Below the pieces are notes generated by a model, which saw only the letters and a program-made list of their open reading frames with translations, was not told the origin of the DNA and ran no database searches. This document shows positions 9,733-64,000 of a stretch of DNA of 64,000 nucleotides, one piece after another. A program made the position numbers and the translations under genes. Source of the DNA: Escherichia phage vB_EcoM-LTH01. Every line of letters starts with the position of its first letter. Within the stretch, counting starts at the first letter, position 1. The stretch lies in sequence record PP430345; one strand, 5' to 3'.

Positions 9733-10040
9733 CTTATCCTACGGTCACACAAGTCTGACCATCTATCTCTGAGCAAGGGATTTCAAAATGTCTCCCGTCC
9801 CCAAATACATCTCGCCACATAGTCTATTCGGAAGCGGGAGTCTATGCACACCCCTTGCGGTAAGTGACCTCACTTTGAGATCAGCATCTTCCTTATTCGA
9901 CGAGTTAAATTCTCTTTAAGGTAGCCAGTGTTCGCAGCACTAACTATGAGGTATCCGTAAGATGATTTCAGTCATCTACCGAAAAATTACACCAAGCAAC
10001 TACCTTAAAGAGAACTTCTTAGTAAAGGCCCTTGCGAGCC

Positions 10041-10421
10041 TTAATCTTCACCTTCTGCCATTTTATACTCACGAATCTGAGTAGTTAATGGAATAGCATC
10101 TTTAAATGCATCAGAAGGGCCTTGATGAGTTTCTGAATTTGCAGAAGTAGTTCCTCCTGCCAGATCCTCTTCATTATCTTCCATTGTGTACAGATTGTTT
10201 GCCTTTTCAGCTTGCTCAAGAATATACTTCGCAGTAGTTTCTTTAACTTTCTCTGTACCGGAAGTCAGTAGACCTTCCAGAGTTTTAATTGCTTGAGGAG
10301 TAAGTCTTGCAAACTCGGAACGAGCATGAAGAATTGCTCTCTCAGTATTGATTGCAATGCTTTCCTCTGTAGTAGGCCGACCGCGTTTTCGAGTAACGAT
10401 TTCAGCTTTAGCCATAAACAC
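10041..10421 (-). CDS. hypothetical protein with AT-hook-like KRGRP motif
   Basis: 126-aa ORF inside the tRNA region; N-terminal RKRGRPTTEE. Confidence 0.4.
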   Translation of the reverse strand: MFMAKAEIVTRKRGRPTTEESIAINTERAILHARSEFARLTPQAIKTLEGLLTSGTEKVKETTAKYILEQAEKANNLYTMEDNEEDLAGGTTSANSETHQGPSDAFKDAIPLTTQIREYKMAEGED

Positions 10422-10607
10422 CTCAATTCAGTCGATATAACTATATTAGCAGTATAATAGGATTATGTCAAGAACTTATTGAAATGTATTAAGAAATGAA
10501 ATGGGGGTGCGCCGTTTCTGCTGTAATCTACGTCGTTATCGTTGAGGGAACTCGTAGTCAGGGAACATCAGTCCGACGACTTATCGGGAGCGACCCGACT
10601 TCTTATG

Positions 10608-10682
10608 TGGTGGCCCTGGGTGGAATCGAACCACCGTCTGGCGATTATGAGTCGCTTGCTTGAACCGTCCAGCTACAGGGCC
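10608..10682 (-). tRNA. tRNA-Met (anticodon CAT)
   Basis: Acceptor GGCCCTG/CAGGGCC, anticodon loop CTCATAA, T-arm GGTGG-TTCGATT-CCACC, CCA encoded. Confidence 0.75.
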
Positions 10683-10697
10683 TGTATTTAAAAGAAC

Positions 10698-10782
10698 TTA
10701 GCGCGGGAGGAAGGACTCGAACCTTCATACTCCAATTACTCGATTAACGACGGTTTAGAAGACCGTTGAGATACACCCGCGC
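10698..10782 (-). ncRNA. tRNA-like element (Arg-TCT-like anticodon arm) lacking a recognisable D-arm
   Basis: Closing 10-bp stem TTAGCGCGGG/CCCGCGCTAA, canonical anticodon arm ACGGT-CTTCTAA-ACCGT, T-arm GAAGG-TTCGAGT-CCTTC, ~24-nt insert before T-arm; no 3' CCA encoded. Confidence 0.3.
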
Positions 10783-53901: not shown

Positions 53902-54239
53902 TGGTCGAACAAACAGAGATTGAACATCTGATTGAAATGGCTAAAAAAGACCATGAACTTGCCAAAGAACTGACGACTGTTTTTATGTGGGAATACAACG
54001 CAGAAAAATACTTTCGTATTGAAAACATGGTAGAAGATTACTTCCCTTTGCTCTACAAGGTGAGCTATATCGTTAAGTTTCTGATTACGAACATCAGCGT
54101 ACATAGCCGGATGGAAGAGTTAGCCGATTCGAAGTTTAAGAGCCAAATTGCAGAGGCTCTTGTTGAATCGTACACCATTGGCTTGAAAGATTTCTTGAGT
54201 GAACTGGCTCATGCTGTGGAAAATACTGAAGAATTATAA
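53901..54239 (+). CDS. hypothetical protein
   Basis: 112-aa ORF. Confidence 0.4.
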   Translation: MVEQTEIEHLIEMAKKDHELAKELTTVFMWEYNAEKYFRIENMVEDYFPLLYKVSYIVKFLITNISVHSRMEELADSKFKSQIAEALVESYTIGLKDFLSELAHAVENTEEL

Positions 54240-54450
54240 TAACTAAGGAGAATAAAATTAAAAATTTAACGAAAGTAATTGACAACATCATTCGTAACGG
54301 GCATTATGAAGACCAAGAAGACGAGATGCTTTACAGCTACGAAGACTCTGAACTGACTGGTAATTTTGGTGTGTGGAATGAATCAAGTAGTCTGGGGGTT
54401 TTTCGTGGTGATGAGTTCATCTTAGGTATTTACTAAACGAGGAGAAATTT

Positions 54451-54558
54451 ATGAGCATTTGGAAAAACAACGTGCCTGCAACAAACAAAGTGACTTTTAC
54501 CAAAACCGAGATCACTGTGATGGTCATTGCAACATTCATCGTTTTAGTGCTGCTGTGA
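54451..54558 (+). CDS. small membrane peptide (35 aa)
   Basis: Not in ORF track; GAGGAG RBS; hydrophobic C-terminus ITVMVIATFIVLVLL. Confidence 0.3.
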   Translation: MSIWKNNVPATNKVTFTKTEITVMVIATFIVLVLL

Positions 54559-54565
54559 TGTTACT

Positions 54566-54793
54566 ATGCTTAAGTTCATGAATAGATTTGTGAATAGATA
54601 CAGGATCGTACTAATTGAATATAATCATACACATGCAGGCAAAAAGGTTACTTATGCCTTGCAAAAACGAATAGGTTTTTTCTTTTGGTACACAATGACA
54701 AAGTGTGATAGTAAATCTCAGACTGAATACTATTACAGCAGGGTAAAAGATAAATCCGACAAACTGGTAAAGATCATAGGTTACAGAGAATAA
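54566..54793 (+). CDS. hypothetical protein
   Basis: 75-aa ORF. Confidence 0.35.
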   Translation: MLKFMNRFVNRYRIVLIEYNHTHAGKKVTYALQKRIGFFFWYTMTKCDSKSQTEYYYSRVKDKSDKLVKIIGYRE

Positions 54794-54803
54794 GGGGCAA
54801 AAC

Positions 54804-55010
54804 ATGATTTCTTCAGAGCAGGTTCAATTTTGTGAATTAAAACAGGATTTCGGGCAGCACAAGAAAGGTGATCGATTTGAGTTTCACTTTGGTAACACTT
54901 ATCGTGACCCACGTAGAACTTTCGTTGTTGATACCCACTCTGGAGCAATGGTGTTTTGGGAAGAGGACTTTATGAAATTGTTTTTCACGGAGGGTATCGT
55001 TGAAATTTGA
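54804..55010 (+). CDS. hypothetical protein
   Basis: 68-aa ORF. Confidence 0.4.
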   Translation: MISSEQVQFCELKQDFGQHKKGDRFEFHFGNTYRDPRRTFVVDTHSGAMVFWEEDFMKLFFTEGIVEI

Positions 55011-55071
55011 AAATAATGAAGAAAAACAAGGGTATGTGTCTACAGTACCTGAAAGTAAGTCTCGCTCCTTT

Positions 55072-55101
55072 TTGGACTTTGTAAGGAAAAACAGGTATAA
55101 T
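55072..55101 (+). promoter_or_regulatory. putative promoter upstream of RCC1-like gene array
   Basis: TTGGAC, 18-bp spacer, TATAAT. Confidence 0.3.
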
Positions 55102-55176
55102 AGTAAAGTAGATAATGAAACAAAGGAACCTCTTTATGGGGTTCTTTGTGGTATTCCAAAACAACAGGAGAATTAA

Positions 55177-56376
55177 ATGTTAGAAATGTTGAACTTAGGT
55201 GCTGTGGCCTCTCTACCGCCGATTGATGGTGAAATTTCACCTGAATTTATCCAAGCGCAGCAATCGATAGTTATGTATCTTCACAGGCCAACTGGCAATC
55301 TTTACGGGTATGGTAATGCACCTGTATACCGATTCGGAGACGGTATCCCAACAGAAGTGCCGAGCTTTAAACTTATCTATTCAAACTGTAAATATTTCTG
55401 GTTGGGTCAGGCTAGTACACTTGTTGCAACAAACGATGATAAATTCTATTATGCTGGGGTCAGAAACGCATTTCCACCACTGGGGACAGGTGGTGGTAAC
55501 GTTGCTTACTTTACTGAAGTTACAGTACATTTTAACAATATTGGTGTGACACCTGATGATATAAAAACTCTGGCGCTCGGTAGCGGATCTTGTAGGCTTC
55601 TGACAAAAGATGGTCGTGTTTTCTGCTGTGGTCTTAACTCTAATGGTGAGTGTGGGAACGGTACAAGAAATATGATTGCAAACTTTGTCCAGATCACCAA
55701 TATGGGACCTATATCTCAATTGGCTACAAGGGCTTTCGGTACTCATTTCTTAACTGAAGATGGCAGGGAATTCTTTGCAGGGTACGATGCTTACGGGGAA
55801 AGTGGCCTAGGTGCTCTTAACAGCCACTTACAAACTCCAACATTGGTTACTTCGGGTGTTAAAAACATAATTGTTGCTACGGTATGTACTTGGAGAATAA
55901 TGCAAAATGGAGACGTGTATTGGAGCGGTTTGAATACTCAAGGTTCTGCGGGAACAGGTTCATTTAACAACGCAGGTACGGTCCTAAGACCTATAAAAAA
56001 CGATGCCTTGAGTGGAAACTTACCGGAGGGTGATTTATTATATCCATCAGGCATCCAAACAGGTGATGCAACGGGTGCTCCGATCATTTGTTTCGGGAGA
56101 AACACTATCAAAAACGGTGGTGAAAACGGATCAGGTCAAGTGGGTGATGGTGTAAGTTATACATCGGTATATAACTATGTGGACATGTACAAACCTGCAA
56201 CCTTCGGAGATAAAAAGGTTATTGGGGTGGCTAAAGATTATGTACGATCATTTATCTTAACTGAAGATTATCAATTGTTTGCCGCAGGTGGTAGAACAGC
56301 AAGTGGATGGACACTCCCTGATGGAGGGACCAGTGTTACACCCATGCGCCTCATGGCTAGTATGCCTTGGTACTAA
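55177..56376 (+). CDS. RCC1-like beta-propeller repeat protein (paralogue 1)
   Basis: Starts MLEMLNLG; repeated Gly-rich units e.g. CCGLNSNGECGNGT, WSGLNTQGSAGTG. Confidence 0.55.
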   Translation: MLEMLNLGAVASLPPIDGEISPEFIQAQQSIVMYLHRPTGNLYGYGNAPVYRFGDGIPTEVPSFKLIYSNCKYFWLGQASTLVATNDDKFYYAGVRNAFPPLGTGGGNVAYFTEVTVHFNNIGVTPDDIKTLALGSGSCRLLTKDGRVFCCGLNSNGECGNGTRNMIANFVQITNMGPISQLATRAFGTHFLTEDGREFFAGYDAYGESGLGALNSHLQTPTLVTSGVKNIIVATVCTWRIMQNGDVYWSGLNTQGSAGTGSFNNAGTVLRPIKNDALSGNLPEGDLLYPSGIQTGDATGAPIICFGRNTIKNGGENGSGQVGDGVSYTSVYNYVDMYKPATFGDKKVIGVAKDYVRSFILTEDYQLFAAGGRTASGWTLPDGGTSVTPMRLMASMPWY

Positions 56377-56389
56377 TAAGGAGAATAGA

Positions 56390-57523
56390 ATGTTAGAGAT
56401 GTTAAATTTATCTGGCGCGGCAGGGAAGGTCCCATTTAAGTTGAAAAAGTTTGATATTACAGCAAGCGAAAGTATTCACTTGCTTAGTGAAGCTGGCAAT
56501 CTGTACTCAATATCACCTACAAATGTAAACTTATCGGGAACGGGTGTTACCACAACGCAGTGGACGTTAGTCTCTTCGGGTGTAGATGACTTCTGGGCTG
56601 GGCAAGCTTCGCTCTTGTTCAAAACAAAAGGGGGATCGTGGTTTATTACAGGGTATAACTTCTTCGTACCTAGAGTAGAGAATACGCCCGTTGACGTAAC
56701 GGCTAAGGTAATGGCAATCAATAAGCCGATAAGAAAAATAGAAATGGGTGCTAATGCGATCGCTTTCCTTTATACAGATAATACTCTGGCAGTTGCGGGA
56801 TCAGGCCCCCATTTAGGCTTAGGTTCCAATACTTCAGTCCCGAATTTAACTTATGTTGAACCACCAAATACTTCGTTGGGTATCAAAGATGTTGCGATAT
56901 TGGATACTTCAGTTACTACCTGGATTATAAGCGGGGGTGATGTATACGGATGTGGAAACGGGGCTTACTCTAAGTTTTCTTCTTCCAACGGGACAGGCCA
57001 AAGGACCTCTTTTGTTAGGATACCAAACCCAATAAACTCAGCACCACTTGCATTAAAGACTGGATATGAGTGCGTGTATATTTCAGGCTCACGCACAGAC
57101 GGGGATGAATTGATACTCGGCTTAGGTAGCAACGCATATGGGTCATTAGGTGCAGCATCTACTGTTGCAACTGTAACTGACATATCTGTAGTCACAAGCA
57201 GTGTTTATTCACCCGCTTACGGGTTTTACCCTCTCGCCCAAGGTCTTGTGAGGAGAATAAATAACAATATCGGTATTACGGGGAGGACTGCGGGGACAGG
57301 CTGGGGATTGGGAACTCAGACGTATTACGGTATTACTAGAATAACCACTACAGCAAGTCCGTTATGGGGTCAAATATTTCAAAGGGGTGAGTATACAAAC
57401 ACTTACGTTCTGGCAGAAGATGGTATTTTGTATGGGTCGGGTGGGGCTTCAACAGGTAAATTACCTGGTTACACAACAGATCAGTCAACCTATGTGCCAC
57501 TGGACCTTACCGGACTTGAATAA
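56390..57523 (+). CDS. RCC1-like beta-propeller repeat protein (paralogue 2)
   Basis: Start at ATG 56390 (MLEMLNLS) after AAGGAG; same repeat type. Confidence 0.55.
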   Translation: MLEMLNLSGAAGKVPFKLKKFDITASESIHLLSEAGNLYSISPTNVNLSGTGVTTTQWTLVSSGVDDFWAGQASLLFKTKGGSWFITGYNFFVPRVENTPVDVTAKVMAINKPIRKIEMGANAIAFLYTDNTLAVAGSGPHLGLGSNTSVPNLTYVEPPNTSLGIKDVAILDTSVTTWIISGGDVYGCGNGAYSKFSSSNGTGQRTSFVRIPNPINSAPLALKTGYECVYISGSRTDGDELILGLGSNAYGSLGAASTVATVTDISVVTSSVYSPAYGFYPLAQGLVRRINNNIGITGRTAGTGWGLGTQTYYGITRITTTASPLWGQIFQRGEYTNTYVLAEDGILYGSGGASTGKLPGYTTDQSTYVPLDLTGLE

Positions 57524-57532
57524 GGAAAAATT

Positions 57533-58672
57533 ATGTTAGAGATGATGAACTTAGGTTCTGTCGAATTGCCAGAAGTGGAAGGTAACGTTAAGAAATTCGC
57601 CGCCGGAGGTACGGGGATTGTTGTACTTATGAAATCCGGCAACGCCTACGGTATCGGAGATCAATACTTCAGCGGTACAGGGGGGAATGTTACAACATGG
57701 AGGCTTCTGGCAAGAAACGTTGCAGATATATGGGCTGCAACTGGCTCTGTGCTTATGAGGACAACCGCAGATAGATGGTTGTTTATGGGGTTTAACCAAT
57801 ATTTTAATACTGGTTTTGGAACTACGATAACCACCCCCAGAGATATAACTACAGATATGCCTATACCCGAAGGATTTGAGATCAAGCAGTTGGTACTCGG
57901 GTATCGTAACTTGGCTGTTGTCTTTACCAATGGGCGGTATGCAATGTGCGGGACTAATAACGCAGGAGGTCTGGGGACAGGGGACACTTTTGCAGTAAGA
58001 ACCTTAACCTTAAGAACTGACTTCACAAACGTTGAAAAAATAGATCTTGATTGGGCAACCTACGACACATCTTATCTTCTTACCCAAGCTGGTGAAGTTT
58101 ATGTATCAGGTGTTTCAAATAATGGACAAAACGGGACAACTTCAAACACTACAACTTGGTTTAGGCAAAGCCCAATTAGTGGTGGTACGGTAGTTGACAT
58201 AATCGCGACAACGCTTGGGTTTTTTAGGGTTGTACTTTTAAATGGTAATTACTACGTCTACGCACAAGGGCGAAGTTCGTCAGGGAGTCTTGGGGTAAAT
58301 AACTCAGGTAACATAAACGTTCTTTCACCCTCATTGGTATTTTCTAATGTACCTTCAAGACCTCCTTTGTACATTGGTCACCTTAGCGCCCGTATTCTCC
58401 ACCCCGAAGAAAGGGTATACTATACAGGGGCGGCTACGGGTAGTTTACAAGGAGCAGGTGCACAATTTCAGTCGTCGTATTCAGTATTTACACGGCTTGC
58501 AGAGACTGTACCGTATGGTGGAGAATATTCATCCCTAAAAGGTGGCTATGTTGCACACTACTATGTAGATAAAGGAAACCTATATGGTGTCGGTAATAGC
58601 AGTGCAGGATTGCTCCCAGGTTACATAGGTACACAACTCTTCGAATTTACACCGTTGGAATTGCCGGAGTAA
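57533..58672 (+). CDS. RCC1-like beta-propeller repeat protein (paralogue 3)
   Basis: MLEMMNLG; near-collinear with paralogue 4 (FMGFNQYFNTGFGTT, TLTLRTDFTNVEKIDLDW). Confidence 0.55.
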   Translation: MLEMMNLGSVELPEVEGNVKKFAAGGTGIVVLMKSGNAYGIGDQYFSGTGGNVTTWRLLARNVADIWAATGSVLMRTTADRWLFMGFNQYFNTGFGTTITTPRDITTDMPIPEGFEIKQLVLGYRNLAVVFTNGRYAMCGTNNAGGLGTGDTFAVRTLTLRTDFTNVEKIDLDWATYDTSYLLTQAGEVYVSGVSNNGQNGTTSNTTTWFRQSPISGGTVVDIIATTLGFFRVVLLNGNYYVYAQGRSSSGSLGVNNSGNINVLSPSLVFSNVPSRPPLYIGHLSARILHPEERVYYTGAATGSLQGAGAQFQSSYSVFTRLAETVPYGGEYSSLKGGYVAHYYVDKGNLYGVGNSSAGLLPGYIGTQLFEFTPLELPE

Positions 58673-58694
58673 AAAACTTCAAAAGGGGAATTAA

Positions 58695-59846
58695 ATGTTA
58701 GAAATGATGAACTTAGGCACTGTTAAACTTCCTGCGGGAGGAGGCAGGGTCAAGAAGTTTGCAGCGGGGCAACAAGGCATCGTTGTACTTATGGAGTCTG
58801 GGAAACTCTATGGTCGCGGAAGTCAGTATTTTAGTGGTACAGGGTCTACTGTAAACACTTGGAAACTGCTAGGAACAGATATCGCAGACGTATGGACGGG
58901 TCCCGTATCAACTCTTGCAAGGACAACAGACGACAGATGGTTGTTTATGGGATTGAACCAATATTTTAACACTGGTTTTGGGACAACATGGTCCGCGCTG
59001 ACGGATGTTACAGTGGATATGCCTATCCCTGTTGGCCTTACGGTTAAGCAGGTAGTGATGGGATACATAAACGTTGCAGTAGTCTTTGCAAATGGACAAT
59101 ATGCCATGTGTGGGACAAATGTCTCCGGTGGATTGGGTGTTGGTAACACATCACCTGTGAGAACCTTAACATTAAGGACCGATTTTACGAACGTGGAGAA
59201 GATAGACCTCGATTGGGGGACATATGATACCTCCTATCTTCTTACCCAAGCTGGTGATGTTTATGTGGCCGGACAATCTTCTTATGGTCAAAACGGAACA
59301 CAGTCTAGCTCCACAACTTGGTTCAGGCAAAGTTCAGTTAGCGGCGGGACAGTGGTAGATATAGTTGCAACAACCTTAGGGTTCTTCAGGATCGTTCTTT
59401 CATCAGGGAGTTACCGAATATATGCGCAAGGGAGGGACATAAACAATAGTCTTGGAACTAACACCACAAGCAACACACCTCGACTGGCCCCTGTATTAGT
59501 TCTTTCGGGAATAGCAAGTGCAGTAAGACCAAGGGTATATATCAGTCACTATGCTGCCCGAGTTATAGATAGCGATGGAGTAGTATACTTTACAGGACAA
59601 GGGACGGGAGATCTACAGGGTGTTGGGACCACACCTCAACCAACGTATCGTGTTTTTTCACAGCTTGACCCAATAGTTCCGTCCGTAGGTGATTATTTTT
59701 CCACAAGATCTCAGTACCTGACTAACTATTATTTGGAAGATGGTGTTCTGTATGGTGTTGGTCAGGGTGCTCAAGCAACACAGTTACTACCTGGTTATGG
59801 AACGACACAGGTTCTGACTTTCTCTGTTCTGGAATTACCGGAATAA
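58695..59846 (+). CDS. RCC1-like beta-propeller repeat protein (paralogue 4)
   Basis: MLEMMNLG; closest to paralogue 3. Confidence 0.55.
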   Translation: MLEMMNLGTVKLPAGGGRVKKFAAGQQGIVVLMESGKLYGRGSQYFSGTGSTVNTWKLLGTDIADVWTGPVSTLARTTDDRWLFMGLNQYFNTGFGTTWSALTDVTVDMPIPVGLTVKQVVMGYINVAVVFANGQYAMCGTNVSGGLGVGNTSPVRTLTLRTDFTNVEKIDLDWGTYDTSYLLTQAGDVYVAGQSSYGQNGTQSSSTTWFRQSSVSGGTVVDIVATTLGFFRIVLSSGSYRIYAQGRDINNSLGTNTTSNTPRLAPVLVLSGIASAVRPRVYISHYAARVIDSDGVVYFTGQGTGDLQGVGTTPQPTYRVFSQLDPIVPSVGDYFSTRSQYLTNYYLEDGVLYGVGQGAQATQLLPGYGTTQVLTFSVLELPE

Positions 59847-59862
59847 CAAATTAATAAACACA

Positions 59863-59886
59863 AACCGCCTTTGGGCGGTTTTTTAT
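59863..59886 (+). terminator. rho-independent terminator
   Basis: ACCGCCTTTGGGCGGT hairpin then T6 after the RCC1-like array. Confidence 0.7.
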
Positions 59887-60056
59887 TACCTATCGCTTCA
59901 CAGAACGCATCGTAACGACCTAAACTGACTAACCTACCCGAATGTATACCCTACTTAAATAACCTCGTGAGAAGCCTTCTAAGAGGCTTTAAAAAGTTCT
60001 TGCATTCTCCCATTTTGTCCTGTACATTAAGTTCATCAACTAAACAGGAGGCTAAC

Positions 60057-60221
60057 ATGACACCACAAGAAAAATACTTTGACCTAATGGCAATGATCGA
60101 GGCATACGCAAACGCTGTTTCTGACTTCGAGGATAAACCTTGGGACAGGGATAAAGTACGGAAAGTGGCGACAATGCACACAGAATTACAAGAAAAGGTT
60201 GCAGAGTACACCGGAAACTAA
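60057..60221 (+). CDS. hypothetical small protein
   Basis: Start at ATG 60057 after ACAGGAGG. Confidence 0.4.
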   Translation: MTPQEKYFDLMAMIEAYANAVSDFEDKPWDRDKVRKVATMHTELQEKVAEYTGN

Positions 60222-60256
60222 TATACTGGGCATATCAAATCAAAGAGGAGAACAAA

Positions 60257-60724
60257 ATGTACAGCTTAACAGTCTATCGTCGTGAATTTCCTGAACATAC
60301 ATCCAGCTATTTCTTTGCTTTCTGCACCCCTGATCGTAAAGAACTGATCCAGAAGCTTGCAGATGAGATGTTCAAAGAAGCCTTAGCTCAGGATTATGAC
60401 ATTTCTAAAGGGGTTAGCTACTATACTAACTGGAATGATTTTATCGTCGGCATTGATGGCTATATGGGTGCTTGCTGGTCAAGTGGCAAGACTGCAACGC
60501 CGGAATGTTTAGAACTCGACGACAAAATCGATGCTATTCTGGCAGAGGCATATGATATCTCTGAGCAAATGCTGAAAGATAAGTATGGCGAACTTCTTAA
60601 AGAGGTGCAAGAAGAGCGCAATCAAGAAGCAAAAGCAAAACTTCTGGCATTGATCGAAGAATATGAAATTCCTTTCGACCAAGCCGTTGAAAACATTCAG
60701 AAATTAATCATTAGCAAAAAGTGA
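60257..60724 (+). CDS. hypothetical protein
   Basis: 155-aa ORF with AGAGGAG RBS. Confidence 0.45.
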   Translation: MYSLTVYRREFPEHTSSYFFAFCTPDRKELIQKLADEMFKEALAQDYDISKGVSYYTNWNDFIVGIDGYMGACWSSGKTATPECLELDDKIDAILAEAYDISEQMLKDKYGELLKEVQEERNQEAKAKLLALIEEYEIPFDQAVENIQKLIISKK

Positions 60725-60734
60725 GGAGGTTATA

Positions 60735-61019
60735 ATGGAAAAGAAACGTCGTGCGGGTATGTTAGATAATCAATTTTTCTGTCCATTTAAGTTCCATGCG
60801 GAGTATAATCGAGGAGAATTTGAGATGAACGCTACTAATCTGGCAAGCATTCAAGAGGTGATCTACGGTGATGGTCACGTAGAGTACATCTTTTGGGATG
60901 AGTCAGACCTCGCTATGCCAGCAGGGTTTACTCTGGAAGATGCAAAGACCTCATTCCGTACTTATTGCACAGATTACCTCGGTGATCCTAAGCCAGTGGA
61001 CTTCTATGACTGGAAATAA
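60735..61019 (+). CDS. hypothetical protein
   Basis: 94-aa ORF with GAGGAGG RBS. Confidence 0.45.
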   Translation: MEKKRRAGMLDNQFFCPFKFHAEYNRGEFEMNATNLASIQEVIYGDGHVEYIFWDESDLAMPAGFTLEDAKTSFRTYCTDYLGDPKPVDFYDWK

Positions 61020-62116: not shown

Positions 62117-62496
62117 ATAAAATCGCACATCGTTGGAATGGTACACGTAAATCTTTGGCAGAAGAGGCCGAAAGGCGTAAAGAACAAGAGGAGAAGATTG
62201 TTTCTGGCTCTGTACGTAGGATCTATATAGAACCGAAAGATAAGAAGGTAATTTATGACGGAACAGAGGCGCAATTTGTCTACGAAATAGCTAAGAAGGA
62301 TGCAGATGCCCTTGGGTTTACTCAGAGCTACCTTGAGTATGCCTACGATAATGGAATTGAATCTATCATCCTTCAAGAAGATAAAGATAAATCTCAATAC
62401 AAGTCAGTAAAAGCACAGAGCTACAGAATTGTTAAGCTTGTCAATCTATTTGACATTGACAATCCAACGTATGCCCTCAGACGACTGGCTGTATGA
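62110..62496 (+). CDS. hypothetical protein
   Basis: Start at ATG 62110 after GGAGG; last plus-strand gene before the non-coding repeat region. Confidence 0.4.
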   Translation: MVNKIAHRWNGTRKSLAEEAERRKEQEEKIVSGSVRRIYIEPKDKKVIYDGTEAQFVYEIAKKDADALGFTQSYLEYAYDNGIESIILQEDKDKSQYKSVKAQSYRIVKLVNLFDIDNPTYALRRLAV

Positions 62497-62568
62497 TCCT
62501 GAACTACAGAGAGCACCCCAAAAGTGGGTGCTTTTTGCATCTGGATTGCAACCAAACTCATCTGCTCA

Positions 62569-62650
62569 TCCCAAAATGTTGTACACCTCTCCAAAATGTT
62601 GTGCCCACCAAACTATATAGTCCTTCCAAACTGTTGTACTCCAGCTACAA
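62569..62650. repeat. three copies of CCAAA(A/C)TGTTGT(A/G)C-type direct repeat
   Basis: Copies near 62570, 62591, 62636. Confidence 0.6.
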
Positions 62651-63162
62651 TAATGCCCAAATATCGTACAACGATTCCCACAAATATCGATTCATCCCAA
62701 AATTAGGTAGTTTGCCTAAAGAGTAACCACTACTTGGCCTACTGAGGCGCATCTTTTGCCACAGAGTTACCTCCCTTCCCTATACATCCATCCCTCATAG
62801 TTTAGAATTTCCAGTATATGTCTACTCTGAGTGGACCTCCATCATGAATTTTAAACGACAACTTTTTAGTTTTTATACCCTCCCGCCAAAATTTTGAGTC
62901 ACCTCTTATGGGGTATGCCGCCTGTGAATATCCCACAAAATATCTCACAGGTCATAAAATATACCTCCCCGCCAAATTTTATGATGGATACTCCACGGGG
63001 GTGGGTCCATTATTTATCCTGCCCAAATATATCTAAAGGGGGTAGCCTAAAGAGGCTCGCCAGTAGTGTCCCTTGACCTTGTTCCTCGTCAGCAAGAAAG
63101 AAGAGGATGTTTGCATCTTTTTTGTTGAGTGCGTTGGCACTGTTGCCAGGCACGGCGACCGT

Positions 63163-63183
63163 GGGGGAGGGGGAGGGGGTCGG
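63163..63183. repeat. polypurine tract GGGGGAGGGGGAGGGGG
   Basis: Read directly; a second purine-rich run GGGAGAGAAGAGAGAAGAGAG lies near 63593-63613. Confidence 0.6.
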
Positions 63184-63675
63184 ATGTTTTCAAAATATCC
63201 AGGAAGTCAAGCATTATTTCTATTTATTTTCAATCCACAATACATCTTTGATTCGACTTGTCAAGAAAAATGTTGTGCTCTTCCAACAATAAAGTTAAAG
63301 ATTTCTATTGACTTCTGAATCTGATTTAGAATACTGATTTCAATCTGCATTTAACATAATACAACTTATACGCACTACAAGCGACTTGCAAGCGCCCTTC
63401 TTCCAGTCCAACAAGTGAGGCGACCTCAAGCCCCGCCAGGTCTGGCCCCTTCCAACTTGTGAGAAGAATAATCCCAACTTGTTACTATCCAACTGTGAAT
63501 TATTCCAACTGTACAGAAGCGACTCCATCAGGGCCATCAATAGCCTGAGCGCCCCGCCATACTCTGGCAATAAAAGCAAGAAAAAATTTATTTTGGGAGA
63601 GAAGAGAGAAGAGAGTTTTACCTAGCAATATTCTATTGTCTGTTCATTCTGTGGGCAAGTAACAGCCTTTTACGG

Positions 63676-63726
63676 CCTCTTTGTGTACTGTGCATCCTCT
63701 TTGTGTACCCTACAGCCTCTTTGTGT
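63676..63726. repeat. 3 x CCTCTTTGTGT direct repeats at 20-bp periodicity (iteron-like)
   Basis: Copies at 63676, 63696, 63716. Confidence 0.8.
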
Positions 63727-64000
63727 GGTCACACTAACGGCCTTCCTATTGACTAGCTATTCACTTTATATGAATAACAAAGCATTAAATAATTCAATAT
63801 TATCTTCGATAATGTATTGACAAAAGATAAAAGATTACTACAAGTAGACACTATAAAACGAGGAAACGAAGAGAACAGATAGCAACAATCTGTTTCGTTG
63901 ATATCGGTTATCACCGATGACCGCATAGCGGTAGGAGGGGTATACTCGTTTTATAGTGTCGCTCCCTACGGTCGCGCCACCTCCATACTCTGGCAATGGT

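What the first reader, a model, noticed from the sequence alone, without database searches (positions are those of the whole stretch)
55177..59846. Four tandem RCC1-like beta-propeller paralogues with a shared MLEM(L/M)NLG start
Four consecutive ~380-400-aa genes each begin MLEMLNLG/MLEMMNLG and consist of Gly-rich beta-hairpin repeats of RCC1 type. Paralogues 3 and 4 are near-collinear while 1 and 2 are more diverged. They sit in one promoter-to-terminator unit on the strand opposite the head genes. Candidate roles are alternative receptor-binding or adhesin modules, or a host-protein-binding family.
Basis: partly seen in the sequence, partly recalled or inferred. Interest (0 to 1): 0.6.

Follow-up and report, generated by a model that had tools for sequence, protein, structure and literature searches.

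The report
Tagged RCC1-like propeller proteins of a phage virion
Four neighbouring phage genes encode seven-bladed RCC1-like propeller proteins whose counterparts in a sister phage are known virion components of unknown role, and they share a short N-terminal peptide that looks like a virion address tag.

Summary
Four co-oriented genes (55177-56376, 56390-57523, 57533-58672, 58695-59846) start MLEMLNLG, MLEMLNLS, MLEMMNLG and MLEMMNLG. They lie between a conserved sigma-70-like site and a clean terminator, on the strand opposite the head genes. A confident AlphaFold model of copy 4 is a seven-bladed RCC1-like propeller.

The window is a Septuagintavirus-like coliphage (Vequintavirinae). Copies 1-3 are orthologues of W70_237, W70_238 and W70_239. 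Published mass spectrometry (PMC11370258) detected those three in purified W70 virions. So the kind is known; the fourth copy is only a copy-number variant.

New here: the shared start is disordered in the model and lies outside the propeller. It is among the most conserved segments of the family. Jumbo-phage relatives carry an analogous tag (MLPFARMVKYGN). Copy 1 has a jumbo-lineage propeller but the resident tag.

Best reading: address tag, linker, then a variable binding propeller, probably an external accessory adhesin. An internal or ejected role remains a serious rival. 'DNA condensation' is a name transfer and is unlikely (pI 5.4-5.8). Location and ligand are untested.

The parts
55073..55101 (+). 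sigma-70-like promoter candidate (TGGACT, 17 nt, TATAAT) upstream of copy 1
   Evidence: Consensus scan, 10 of 12 matches. The block TTTTTGGACTTTGTAAGG.AAAACAGGTATAAT is invariant in UPEC06, A73 and two metagenomic relatives. Function is not tested, and the relatives are close.
55123..55147 (+). 10-bp hairpin in the putative leader between the promoter and the Shine-Dalgarno sequence
   Evidence: strand folding. The z-score is only -1.37, so the hairpin is not significant on energy. It is conserved in close relatives. It lies inside a 58-aa TTG ORF (55000-55176) that relatives annotate, and that ORF is a doubtful gene.
55162..55205 (+). start box 1: 44-nt direct repeat covering the Shine-Dalgarno sequence, the ATG and the first ~9 codons (the tag)
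   Evidence: the repeat finder family D1, reference copy.
55177..56376 (+). P1, 399 aa, RCC1-like propeller of the jumbo-phage lineage carrying the resident MLEMLNLG tag; orthologue of W70_237
   Evidence: It is 93% identical to W70_237. Its best paralogue-level hit is phAPEC6 gp002, 36.7% over 381 aa and 217 bits, against 77 bits to P4.
56375..56418 (+). start box 2
   Evidence: 70% identical to box 1.
56390..57523 (+). P2, 377 aa, RCC1-like propeller starting MLEMLNLS; orthologue of W70_238
   Evidence: It is 96% identical to W70_238. It is the weakest Pfam match of the four (WD40_RLD 8e-10), but phrog_4219 gives 1.3e-28.
57518..57561 (+). start box 3
   Evidence: 73% identical to box 1.
57533..58672 (+). 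P3, 379 aa, RCC1-like propeller starting MLEMMNLG; orthologue of W70_239
   Evidence: It is 84% identical to W70_239 and 99.5% identical to the third gene of contig L003.
58680..58723 (+). start box 4
   Evidence: 89% identical to box 1 over 44 nt, although the P1 and P4 proteins are only 28% identical.
58695..59846 (+). P4, 383 aa, RCC1-like propeller starting MLEMMNLG; the extra copy
   Evidence: AlphaFold model with pLDDT 87.7 and pTM 0.87; residues 1-9 are disordered. Foldseek gives TM 0.75-0.78 to UVR8. It is 62% identical to P3 with synonymous sites saturated. A P4-type gene fills the third slot in contig L004 (87% identical) and the fourth slot in L003 (96% identical).
59862..59887 (+). 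intrinsic-terminator-like hairpin (8 bp, 5 G-C pairs, loop 4) followed by a T-run
   Evidence: It is the only terminator-like site in 54000-61000. It begins 16 nt after the stop codon of P4.

Best explanation
The four genes encode paralogous virion-borne accessory proteins. Each appears to have three parts. The first is a short N-terminal peptide, M-L-E-M-(L/M)-N-L-(G/S), that lies outside the fold. The second is a linker of about 10 residues, often containing Pro or Gly. The third is a single seven-bladed RCC1-like beta-propeller.

I read the peptide as an address tag that docks each paralogue to a shared, phage-specific site during assembly. The divergent propellers would then provide alternative ligand-binding surfaces. 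P3 and P4 differ most in residues 240-360.

The most likely location is the outside of the particle, on the tail-fibre or baseplate periphery, where the proteins would act as accessory adhesins. The repeated 44-nt start boxes and the old paralogues allow copies to be gained, lost or swapped, giving 1-4 copies in Vequintavirinae and up to about 15 tagged copies in jumbo phages.

Shown: the genes, the fold, purifying selection, orthology to proteins found in W70 virions, the position of the tag outside the propeller, and the fact that the tag follows the phage rather than the propeller lineage.

Inferred: that the tag mediates incorporation, the location in the virion, and the ligand.
For: Fold and reality of the genes:
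- establish the propeller fold.
- dN/dS against orthologues is 0.05-0.22.

Virion presence:
- W70_237, W70_238 and W70_239 gave 233, 196 and 141 spectra. For comparison, portal gave 467 and the baseplate protein W70_114 gave 212 (PMC11370258).
- Orthology to those three proteins is 93%, 96% and 84%.
- Related proteins are in virions of phAPEC6 (PMC7247149) and GAP32 (PMC5259590).

The tag:
- Residues 1-9 have pLDDT below 50. The first strand starts at residue 19, and there are 28 strands in all.
- The first 8 alignment columns rank 2nd of 306 windows for conservation across 16 diverse family members, 58.7% against 33.3% overall.
- Certrevirus and Seunavirus copies keep M-[ILF]-E-[LM]-[LM] with different codons.
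- All phAPEC6 paralogues examined start MLPF(A/G)RMxKYGN. That tag has 448 places in 59 jumbo-phage records.
- The P1 propeller groups with phAPEC6 gp002 and P0029 (217 and 154 bits) rather than with P2-P4 (77 bits or less), yet P1 carries the resident tag.
- In the scanned part of W70 (record positions 1-95000) and in this window, the only ORFs with such an N-terminus are the RCC1-like genes and W70_106. All four tagged W70 proteins are on the 28-protein virion list.

External location:
- W70_106 is the last gene of the tail-fibre module. It aligns to the family over its first ~90 residues.
- RCC1-like domains sit inside large proteins of tail modules in phiCD211 and Jenst.
- The fold also matches PVP-SE1 gp40, the homologue of the putative tail fibre rV5 gp28, and a Littlefix tail-fibre protein.
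- pI is 5.4-5.8.
Against: - No experiment localises these proteins. The proteomics only says 'in the particle', and the preparation was a sucrose-gradient one.
- The four genes lie among small early-type genes about 50 kb from the tail module, behind a sigma-70-like promoter rather than in a late structural operon.
- The predicted fold is a single-domain propeller. It is not a trimeric fibre or spike as in classical receptor-binding proteins.
- Jumbo phages would need docking sites for up to ~15 paralogues if all were external.
- The tag is also conserved at the nucleotide level within a genome: P1 and P4 start boxes are 89% identical, and Leu2 and Leu7 are almost always TTA although TTA is 21% of Leu codons elsewhere in these genes. 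Gene conversion or a translational constraint therefore contributes.
- The N-terminal window is not uniquely conserved. A C-terminal motif ranks first.
- The fold of W70_106 could not be modelled (pLDDT 40). Its link to the family rests on an hhalign probability of 61% and a single-target hmmsearch E-value of 1.2e-8.
Confidence: 0.45

Rival explanations
1. The proteins are internal head proteins or ejected effectors. The N-terminal peptide would work like the capsid-targeting sequence of T4 internal proteins, or like an encapsulin cargo-loading peptide, loading each propeller into the procapsid. After ejection with the DNA, the propellers would bind host proteins, for example defence factors. 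Paralogue turnover would then reflect an arms race.
For: - A short conserved peptide at the extreme N-terminus, followed by a flexible linker, on otherwise diverged virion proteins.
- The genes are encoded away from the structural module as a self-contained unit among early-type genes.
- Copy number and allele content vary between close relatives.
- Up to ~15 tagged paralogues occur in jumbo phages. Capsid interiors accommodate that more easily than external sites do.
- phAPEC6 has an inner body, and its authors proposed RCC1-like proteins for it.
- From background knowledge, not tested here: the RCC1-like propeller BLIP-II is a tight protein inhibitor.
Against: - The prohead protease here is of the S78/XkdF type, not the T4 gp21 type.
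- The jumbo-phage tag has no Glu, so a conserved Glu cleavage site is not a family feature.
- The proteins are mildly acidic and about 40 kDa. From background knowledge, T4 internal proteins are small and basic.
- The tagged relative W70_106 lies in the tail-fibre module.
- In other phages RCC1-like domains are parts of tail-module proteins.
Confidence: 0.28
2. They are DNA-condensation or inner-body proteins that organise the packaged genome. This is what the database names say ('regulator of chromosome condensation', 'DNA condensation protein').
For: Annotation in PHROGs and in many GenBank records. The W70 and phAPEC6 papers speculate along these lines.
Against: - The name comes from a eukaryotic Ran exchange factor and carries no evidence of DNA binding by the phage proteins.
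- pI is 5.4-5.8, with fewer basic than acidic residues and no basic tail.
- The family is absent or reduced to a remnant in sister genera whose head genes are homologous (PVP-SE1 remnant). It is therefore accessory to packaging.
Confidence: 0.05
3. They are non-structural intracellular proteins involved in host takeover. They would merely co-purify with particles. The shared start would be a translational or gene-conversion feature with no role for the peptide.
For: - The genomic position among early-type genes behind a sigma-70-like promoter.
- The W70 virions used for proteomics came from a sucrose step gradient.
- Nucleotide-level conservation of the 44-nt start box, including the untranslated Shine-Dalgarno region.
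Against: - Three independent proteomic studies of different phages found family members in virions.
- The W70 list otherwise contains only structural proteins, and the spectral counts are similar to those of baseplate proteins.
- The peptide is conserved across genera with different codons.
- P1 kept or acquired the resident tag on a propeller of foreign lineage.
Confidence: 0.1

Closest known systems
W70_237, W70_238 and W70_239 of Escherichia phage W70 (Septuagintavirus, Vequintavirinae); also the three-gene arrays of A73, A5-4, A7_1 and UPEC06
   Same: Direct orthologues of P1, P2 and P3 (93%, 96% and 84% amino-acid identity). They have the same gene order, the same flanking genes, the same N-terminal starts and the same terminator position. 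The W70 proteins were detected in virions by ESI-MS/MS (PMC11370258).
   Different: Those phages carry three copies. This window, and the metagenomic contig L003, carry four, because both the P3-type and the P4-type genes are present. These two types are old paralogues with saturated synonymous sites. The third gene of UPEC06 is an intermediate or mosaic allele.
RCC1-like 'DNA condensation' paralogue arrays of Asteriusvirus-type jumbo phages (phAPEC6 gp001-010, gp549 and gp551; 121Q; PBECO4; GAP32 gp1)
   Same: They are standalone single-domain proteins of about 370-390 aa in tandem arrays outside the structural module, and several were found in virions by mass spectrometry. They also share a conserved N-terminal peptide ahead of a diverged propeller. 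The P1 propeller is closest to phAPEC6 gp002.
   Different: The tag sequence differs (MLPFARMVKYGN against MLEMxNLG). Copy number is much higher, with up to 15 tag matches per genome. The virion architecture is also different.
Eukaryotic RCC1-like domains (UVR8, RPGR, HERC2 RCC1-like domains, RCC1)
   Same: The same seven-bladed propeller fold (TM 0.60-0.78) and the same Gly-rich repeat signature.
   Different: Sequence identity is 17-20%. There is no sign of Ran-exchange or chromatin function. The whole-domain Pfam model scores below its curated cutoff. The phage-specific N-terminal tag is absent from these proteins.
T4 internal proteins with a capsid-targeting sequence; encapsulin cargo-loading peptides
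   Same: The concept is the same: a short terminal peptide plus linker, shared by otherwise different proteins, directs them into a particle with an HK97-fold shell.
   Different: This is an analogy only. There is no sequence similarity. The protease family differs (S78/XkdF). No cleavage or internal location is shown, and the proteins are larger and acidic.
RCC1-like domains embedded in phage tail-module proteins (phiCD211 gp30, Jenst gp50 and gp51, PVP-SE1 gp40 / rV5 gp28)
   Same: The same fold family, in proteins encoded among tail-fibre genes. This suggests a binding module on the tail.
   Different: Those are domains of proteins of 600-1760 aa within the tail module. The proteins here are free-standing, tagged and encoded elsewhere.

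Membership tests
RCC1-like domain (RLD) superfamily | Seven-bladed beta-propeller fold built of repeats of about 50-60 residues | tested here: met
   The P4 model has pLDDT 87.7, pTM 0.87 and 28 strands. Foldseek gives probability 1.00 and TM 0.74-0.78 to UVR8 and 0.6-0.7 to RPGR, HERC2 and RCC1. P1-P3 were not modelled. They are linked by Pfam and PHROG hits and by alignment A1.
RCC1-like domain (RLD) superfamily | Pfam RCC1 / RCC1_2 / WD40_RLD models at their curated cutoffs | tested here: inconclusive
   WD40_RLD scores 39-93 bits against a cutoff of 150 for all four proteins. The single-repeat models pass for P1 (24.4 against 21.7; 23.3 against 22) and for P4 (25.9 against 22). They do not pass for P2 or P3. 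There are no NCBIfam hits.
RCC1 proper (Ran guanine-nucleotide exchange factor / chromatin binder, 'chromosome condensation') | Basic N-terminal tail and chromatin or DNA binding; a Ran-binding face | tested here: not met
   The N-terminus is the hydrophobic MLEMMNLG, not a basic tail. pI is 5.4-5.8 and K+R is lower than D+E. Identity to RCC1 is about 18%. Bacteria have no Ran (background knowledge). Biochemical activity is not testable here.
Virion-associated standalone RCC1-like proteins of Vequintavirinae (phrog_4219; W70_237-239 group) | Orthology and synteny with the W70, A73 and UPEC06 array | tested here: met
   The region is 87-89% identical at the nucleotide level. Amino-acid identity is 93%, 96% and 84% to W70_237, W70_238 and W70_239. 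The flanking genes are the same. phrog_4219 E-values run from 1e-28 to 8e-52.
Virion-associated standalone RCC1-like proteins of Vequintavirinae (phrog_4219; W70_237-239 group) | Physical presence in purified virions | not testable with these tools
   Known only from the literature, for the W70 orthologues of P1-P3 (PMC11370258). No P4-type protein has been assayed.
Virion-associated standalone RCC1-like proteins of Vequintavirinae (phrog_4219; W70_237-239 group) | Conserved N-terminal M-[LIF]-E-[ML]-[ML] peptide ahead of the propeller | tested here: met
   Present in all four copies and in 16 diverse members. In the model it lies outside the fold.
T4-type internal proteins with a capsid-targeting sequence | T4 gp21-family prohead protease that removes the targeting sequence after an L/I-x-E motif | tested here: not met
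   The prohead protease in the window (4684-5301, minus strand) matches Peptidase_S78_2 / XkdF. The jumbo-phage tag has no Glu. Cleavage itself is not testable here.
Classical phage receptor-binding proteins (tail fibres and tailspikes) | Encoded in the tail or baseplate module; elongated trimeric fibre or beta-helix with an N-terminal anchor domain | tested here: not met
   The genes lie about 50 kb from the tail module, among small early-type genes. The predicted fold is a compact single-domain propeller. This lowers the claim 'is a tail fibre', not the claim 'acts as an adhesin'.

The most novel reading that the evidence does not exclude
The 8-15-residue N-terminal peptide (MLEMxNLG here, MLPFARMVKYGN in jumbo phages, MIPFPIINFG in W70_106) is a portable, phage-specific virion-loading signal. 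Any propeller, and perhaps any cargo, that acquires the resident tag by recombination at the repeated start box would be incorporated into the particle. Large myoviruses would then have a plug-in system for interchangeable binding modules. Functionally this would resemble T4 capsid-targeting sequences or encapsulin cargo-loading peptides, but it would be a distinct and undescribed signal.
Probability: 0.4. Interest if true: 0.7.

Novelty: new member of a known kind. Interest (0 to 1): 0.45.

Why it matters
Tagged standalone RCC1-like propellers are a recurrent virion component with no known role. They occur in two groups of large enterobacterial myoviruses: Vequintavirinae, and Asteriusvirus-type jumbo phages. 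Several of these phages are candidates for phage therapy.

The database name 'DNA condensation protein' is probably misleading. If the N-terminal peptide is a loading signal, it can be tested directly with tag deletion and tag-reporter fusions. It could also serve as a tool for displaying or packaging foreign proteins on such phages.

If the propellers are adhesins or ejected inhibitors, their copy-number and allele turnover would help explain host-range differences among near-identical phages.

The four-copy array itself is only a modest extension of the published three-copy arrays.

Tried and rejected
1. Structure of the W70_106 family, the tagged virion protein at the end of the tail module. 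Only four homologues were found and the model failed (pLDDT 40.4). Whether it is a propeller stays open.

2. Late-promoter search. TATAAATA occurs 3 times against 3.04 expected. Visual comparison of the regions upstream of the head genes and of P1 showed no shared motif. Expression timing is unresolved.

3. Leader hairpin upstream of P1. Its energy is not significant (z = -1.37). Rfam finds only tRNAs in the window.

4. Recent tandem duplication as the origin of P3 and P4. Rejected: synonymous sites are saturated (pS 0.75), and each type occurs alone in the third slot of other phages.

5. Positive selection. Gene-wide dN/dS is 0.05-0.22. It is somewhat higher for P3 and P4 than for P1, but it gives no evidence of diversifying selection at this resolution.

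6. T4-like cleavage at L-x-E. The protease family is different and the jumbo-phage tag has no Glu.

7. Literature. No paper in the library localises these proteins or describes the tag. One apparent hit for 'RCC1' turned out to refer to Roscoff Culture Collection strain numbers. The CB7 paper, cited in the W70 paper in support of 'DNA encapsulation', does not mention such proteins.

8. Solved structures. No phage virion entry matches the family profile, and none appears among the top 50 fold matches.

9. Other tagged genes. A tolerant N-terminus search of the window and of W70 record positions 1-95000 found only the RCC1-like genes, W70_106 and one antisense chance match.


Full report
**Observation**

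| Copy | Coordinates | Length | Start |
|---|---|---|---|
| P1 | 55177-56376 | 399 aa | MLEMLNLG |
| P2 | 56390-57523 | 377 aa | MLEMLNLS |
| P3 | 57533-58672 | 379 aa | MLEMMNLG |
| P4 | 58695-59846 | 383 aa | MLEMMNLG |

All are on the + strand, separated by 9-22 nt, and each has a Shine-Dalgarno sequence. For P2 the mechanical ORF list starts at an upstream TTG. The ATG at 56390 is the real start, judged by its AAGGAG and by the 1134-bp orthologues annotated in three phages.

The back-translated motif occurs four times in the window against 0.10 expected. The only direct DNA repeat in 55000-60000 is a 44-nt box at each gene start. Global identities are 62% (P3/P4), 33% (P2 against P3 or P4) and 28% (P1 against the rest).

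A hairpin with a T-run at 59862-59881 is the only terminator-like site in 54-61 kb. A TGGACT-17-TATAAT site lies at 55073-55101 and is invariant in five related sequences. Those relatives are close, so this is weak support. The head module (large terminase, portal, S78/XkdF protease, decoration protein, lambda-E-like major capsid protein) is on the minus strand at 1401-8358. GC skew changes sign between about 12 and 14 kb.

**Fold**

All four match Pfam WD40_RLD (E from 8e-10 to 3.8e-26, below the curated whole-domain cutoff) and phrog_4219 (E from 1.3e-28 to 7.8e-52). An AlphaFold model of P4 was built on 29 sequences. It has mean pLDDT 87.7, pTM 0.87 and 28 strands, consistent with seven four-stranded blades. 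Foldseek gives TM 0.74-0.78 to UVR8 and 0.6-0.7 to RPGR, HERC1, HERC2 and RCC1. A profile search of PDB sequences returns the same families and no phage entry. The propeller reading is confirmed for P4 and is inferred by homology for P1-P3.

**Source phage and prior knowledge**

The region is 87-89% identical at the nucleotide level to Escherichia phages UPEC06, A73, W70, A5-4 and A7_1. These are Vequintavirinae; four of them were described as the genus Septuagintavirus (PMC11370258). Those phages have three such genes in the same context. P1, P2 and P3 are 93%, 96% and 84% identical to W70_237, W70_238 and W70_239.

PMC11370258 reports ESI-MS/MS of purified W70 particles. W70_237, W70_238 and W70_239 gave 233, 196 and 141 spectra. 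In the same list of 28 proteins, portal gave 467 and the baseplate protein W70_114 gave 212; apart from eight proteins with no assigned role, three of them these, the list is made up of recognisable structural proteins.

Related standalone RCC1-like proteins are virion components of the jumbo phages phAPEC6 (PMC7247149) and GAP32. They occur in arrays of 6-13 in PBECO4 and 121Q (PMC5259590). All these papers leave the function open or speculate on DNA condensation from the name.

**Copy number**

A metagenomic contig (L003) also has four copies, with P3 99.5% and P4 95.6% identical. Another contig (L004) has P1, P2 and a P4-type gene. W70 and A73 have a P3-type third gene. The third gene of UPEC06 is intermediate, and its last 24 residues are identical to P4.

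P3 and P4 are saturated at synonymous sites (pS 0.75). They are therefore old paralogues that are differentially kept, not a recent duplication. Their divergence is concentrated in residues 240-360 (40-50% identity against 60-87% before). Gene-wide dN/dS against orthologues is 0.05-0.22, so all four are maintained by selection. Other Vequintavirinae genera have one or two copies in a similar setting among small genes. PVP-SE1 keeps only an 88-residue remnant.

**The shared start**

This is the part I could take further than the literature.

1. In the model, residues 1-9 are disordered (pLDDT below 50). The first strand begins at residue 19, and 28 strands are already accounted for. The motif is therefore an extension outside the propeller.
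2. Across 16 diverse family members (mean identity 33.3%), the first eight columns are 58.7% identical. That ranks 2nd of 306 windows.
3. Certrevirus and Seunavirus copies keep M-[ILF]-E-[LM]-[LM] with different codons. The constraint therefore acts on the peptide.
4. All phAPEC6 paralogues examined begin MLPF(A/G)RMxKYGN..P. That peptide finds 448 places in 59 jumbo-phage records, up to 15 per genome; the annotated features listed under the best hit of each record are mostly RCC1-like.
5. The P1 propeller is much closer to phAPEC6 gp002 (36.7% over 381 aa, 217 bits) and to P0029, which starts MIPFARIVQYGN (154 bits), than to P2-P4 (77 bits or less). They share indels and the C-terminal MPWY. 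Yet P1 carries the resident MLEMLNLG. The tag follows the phage, not the propeller lineage.
6. The P1 and P4 start boxes are 89% identical over 44 nt, including the untranslated Shine-Dalgarno region. This points to recombination as the route of tag exchange.
7. In the window plus W70 record positions 1-95000, the only other ORF with such an N-terminus is W70_106 (MIPFPIINFGGGVPLP). It is a virion protein encoded next to the tail fibre W70_107. It aligns to the family over about 90 residues (hhalign probability 61%; single-target hmmsearch E-value 1.2e-8). Every tagged W70 protein is thus on the virion list.

**Mechanism**

I read the architecture as address tag, linker, then variable binding propeller. 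The tag would dock the paralogues to a common phage-specific site. That the proteins are virion-borne RCC1-like propellers is well supported (about 0.85). The tag function is inference (about 0.5).

For location I favour the outside of the particle, for these reasons:
- RCC1-like domains are parts of tail-module proteins in phiCD211 and Jenst.
- The fold matches PVP-SE1 gp40, the homologue of the putative tail fibre rV5 gp28, and a Littlefix tail-fibre protein.
- W70_106 lies in the tail module.
- The proteins are mildly acidic.

The main rival is an internal or ejected protein with a capsid-targeting-like signal. It fits the remote, early-type genomic position, the self-contained transcription unit, and the large paralogue numbers in jumbo phages. 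I give it about 0.28.

DNA condensation is a name transfer and fits the charge poorly (about 0.05). Co-purifying non-structural proteins are unlikely given three independent proteomes (about 0.1). Part of the nucleotide-level conservation of the start box may reflect gene conversion or translational constraints. That is compatible with any of these readings.

**Comparison, novelty and score**

The array is a four-copy member of a published family. Membership in the RCC1-like fold superfamily is met by structure. Membership in RCC1 proper, in T4-type internal proteins and in classical tail fibres is not met on the features I could test.

I did not find the tag, its presence in jumbo-phage relatives, or its mismatch with propeller phylogeny described in the searchable literature. 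These give a directly testable hypothesis.

Interest is moderate, 0.45. The object is known and its function is still unknown, but the address-tag reading would be of real interest if confirmed.

Noticed in passing
window 55000-55176 (+): A 58-aa ORF with a TTG start is annotated as a gene in UPEC06, A73 and W70 (W70_236). It overlaps the conserved promoter-like site and the leader hairpin upstream of P1. One metagenome gene caller did not call it. It is more likely a 5' leader than a gene.
   Followed up: partly
window 9235-10780 (-): A tRNA cluster lies between the head module and the strand switch. ARAGORN finds Gln, Gly, Pro, Tyr and Met. Rfam adds a weak sixth tRNA at 10702-10780 (35.8 bits) and does not report the Tyr gene at 9646-9732.
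   Followed up: no
L006 32932-34167 (phage W70, outside this window): W70_106 is a 411-aa virion protein and the last gene of the tail-fibre module. It starts MIPFPIINFGGGVPLP and resembles the RCC1-like family over its first ~90 residues and at its C-terminus. Its homologues occur only in Septuagintavirus and Certrevirus (22 records). Structure prediction failed (pLDDT 40).
   Followed up: partly
L005 1218-14189 (phage phAPEC6): gp002 is annotated with a start 36 codons upstream of an internal MLPF... that matches the tag of its paralogues, so the annotated start is probably wrong. The tag peptide matches 15 places in phAPEC6, although the paper counts 11 RCC1-like proteins.
   Followed up: no
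GU070616.1 116249-116506 (Salmonella phage PVP-SE1, gene 179): There is an 88-residue remnant (42% identity to residues 1-88 of P4) of the tagged propeller family, in a phage that otherwise lacks standalone copies. It suggests gene decay.
   Followed up: no
window 56001-60000: GC content of the paralogue block is 44-44.5% against 39-42% in the flanks. This is at least partly explained by the Gly-rich coding (GGN codons). It was not analysed as evidence of foreign origin.
   Followed up: no
window 62400-64000: After the last + strand genes the GC skew turns negative and convincing ORFs become sparse. In A73 and W70 the corresponding stretch is the divergent boundary between the two gene blocks. 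It was not examined for an origin, repeats or genome ends.
   Followed up: no
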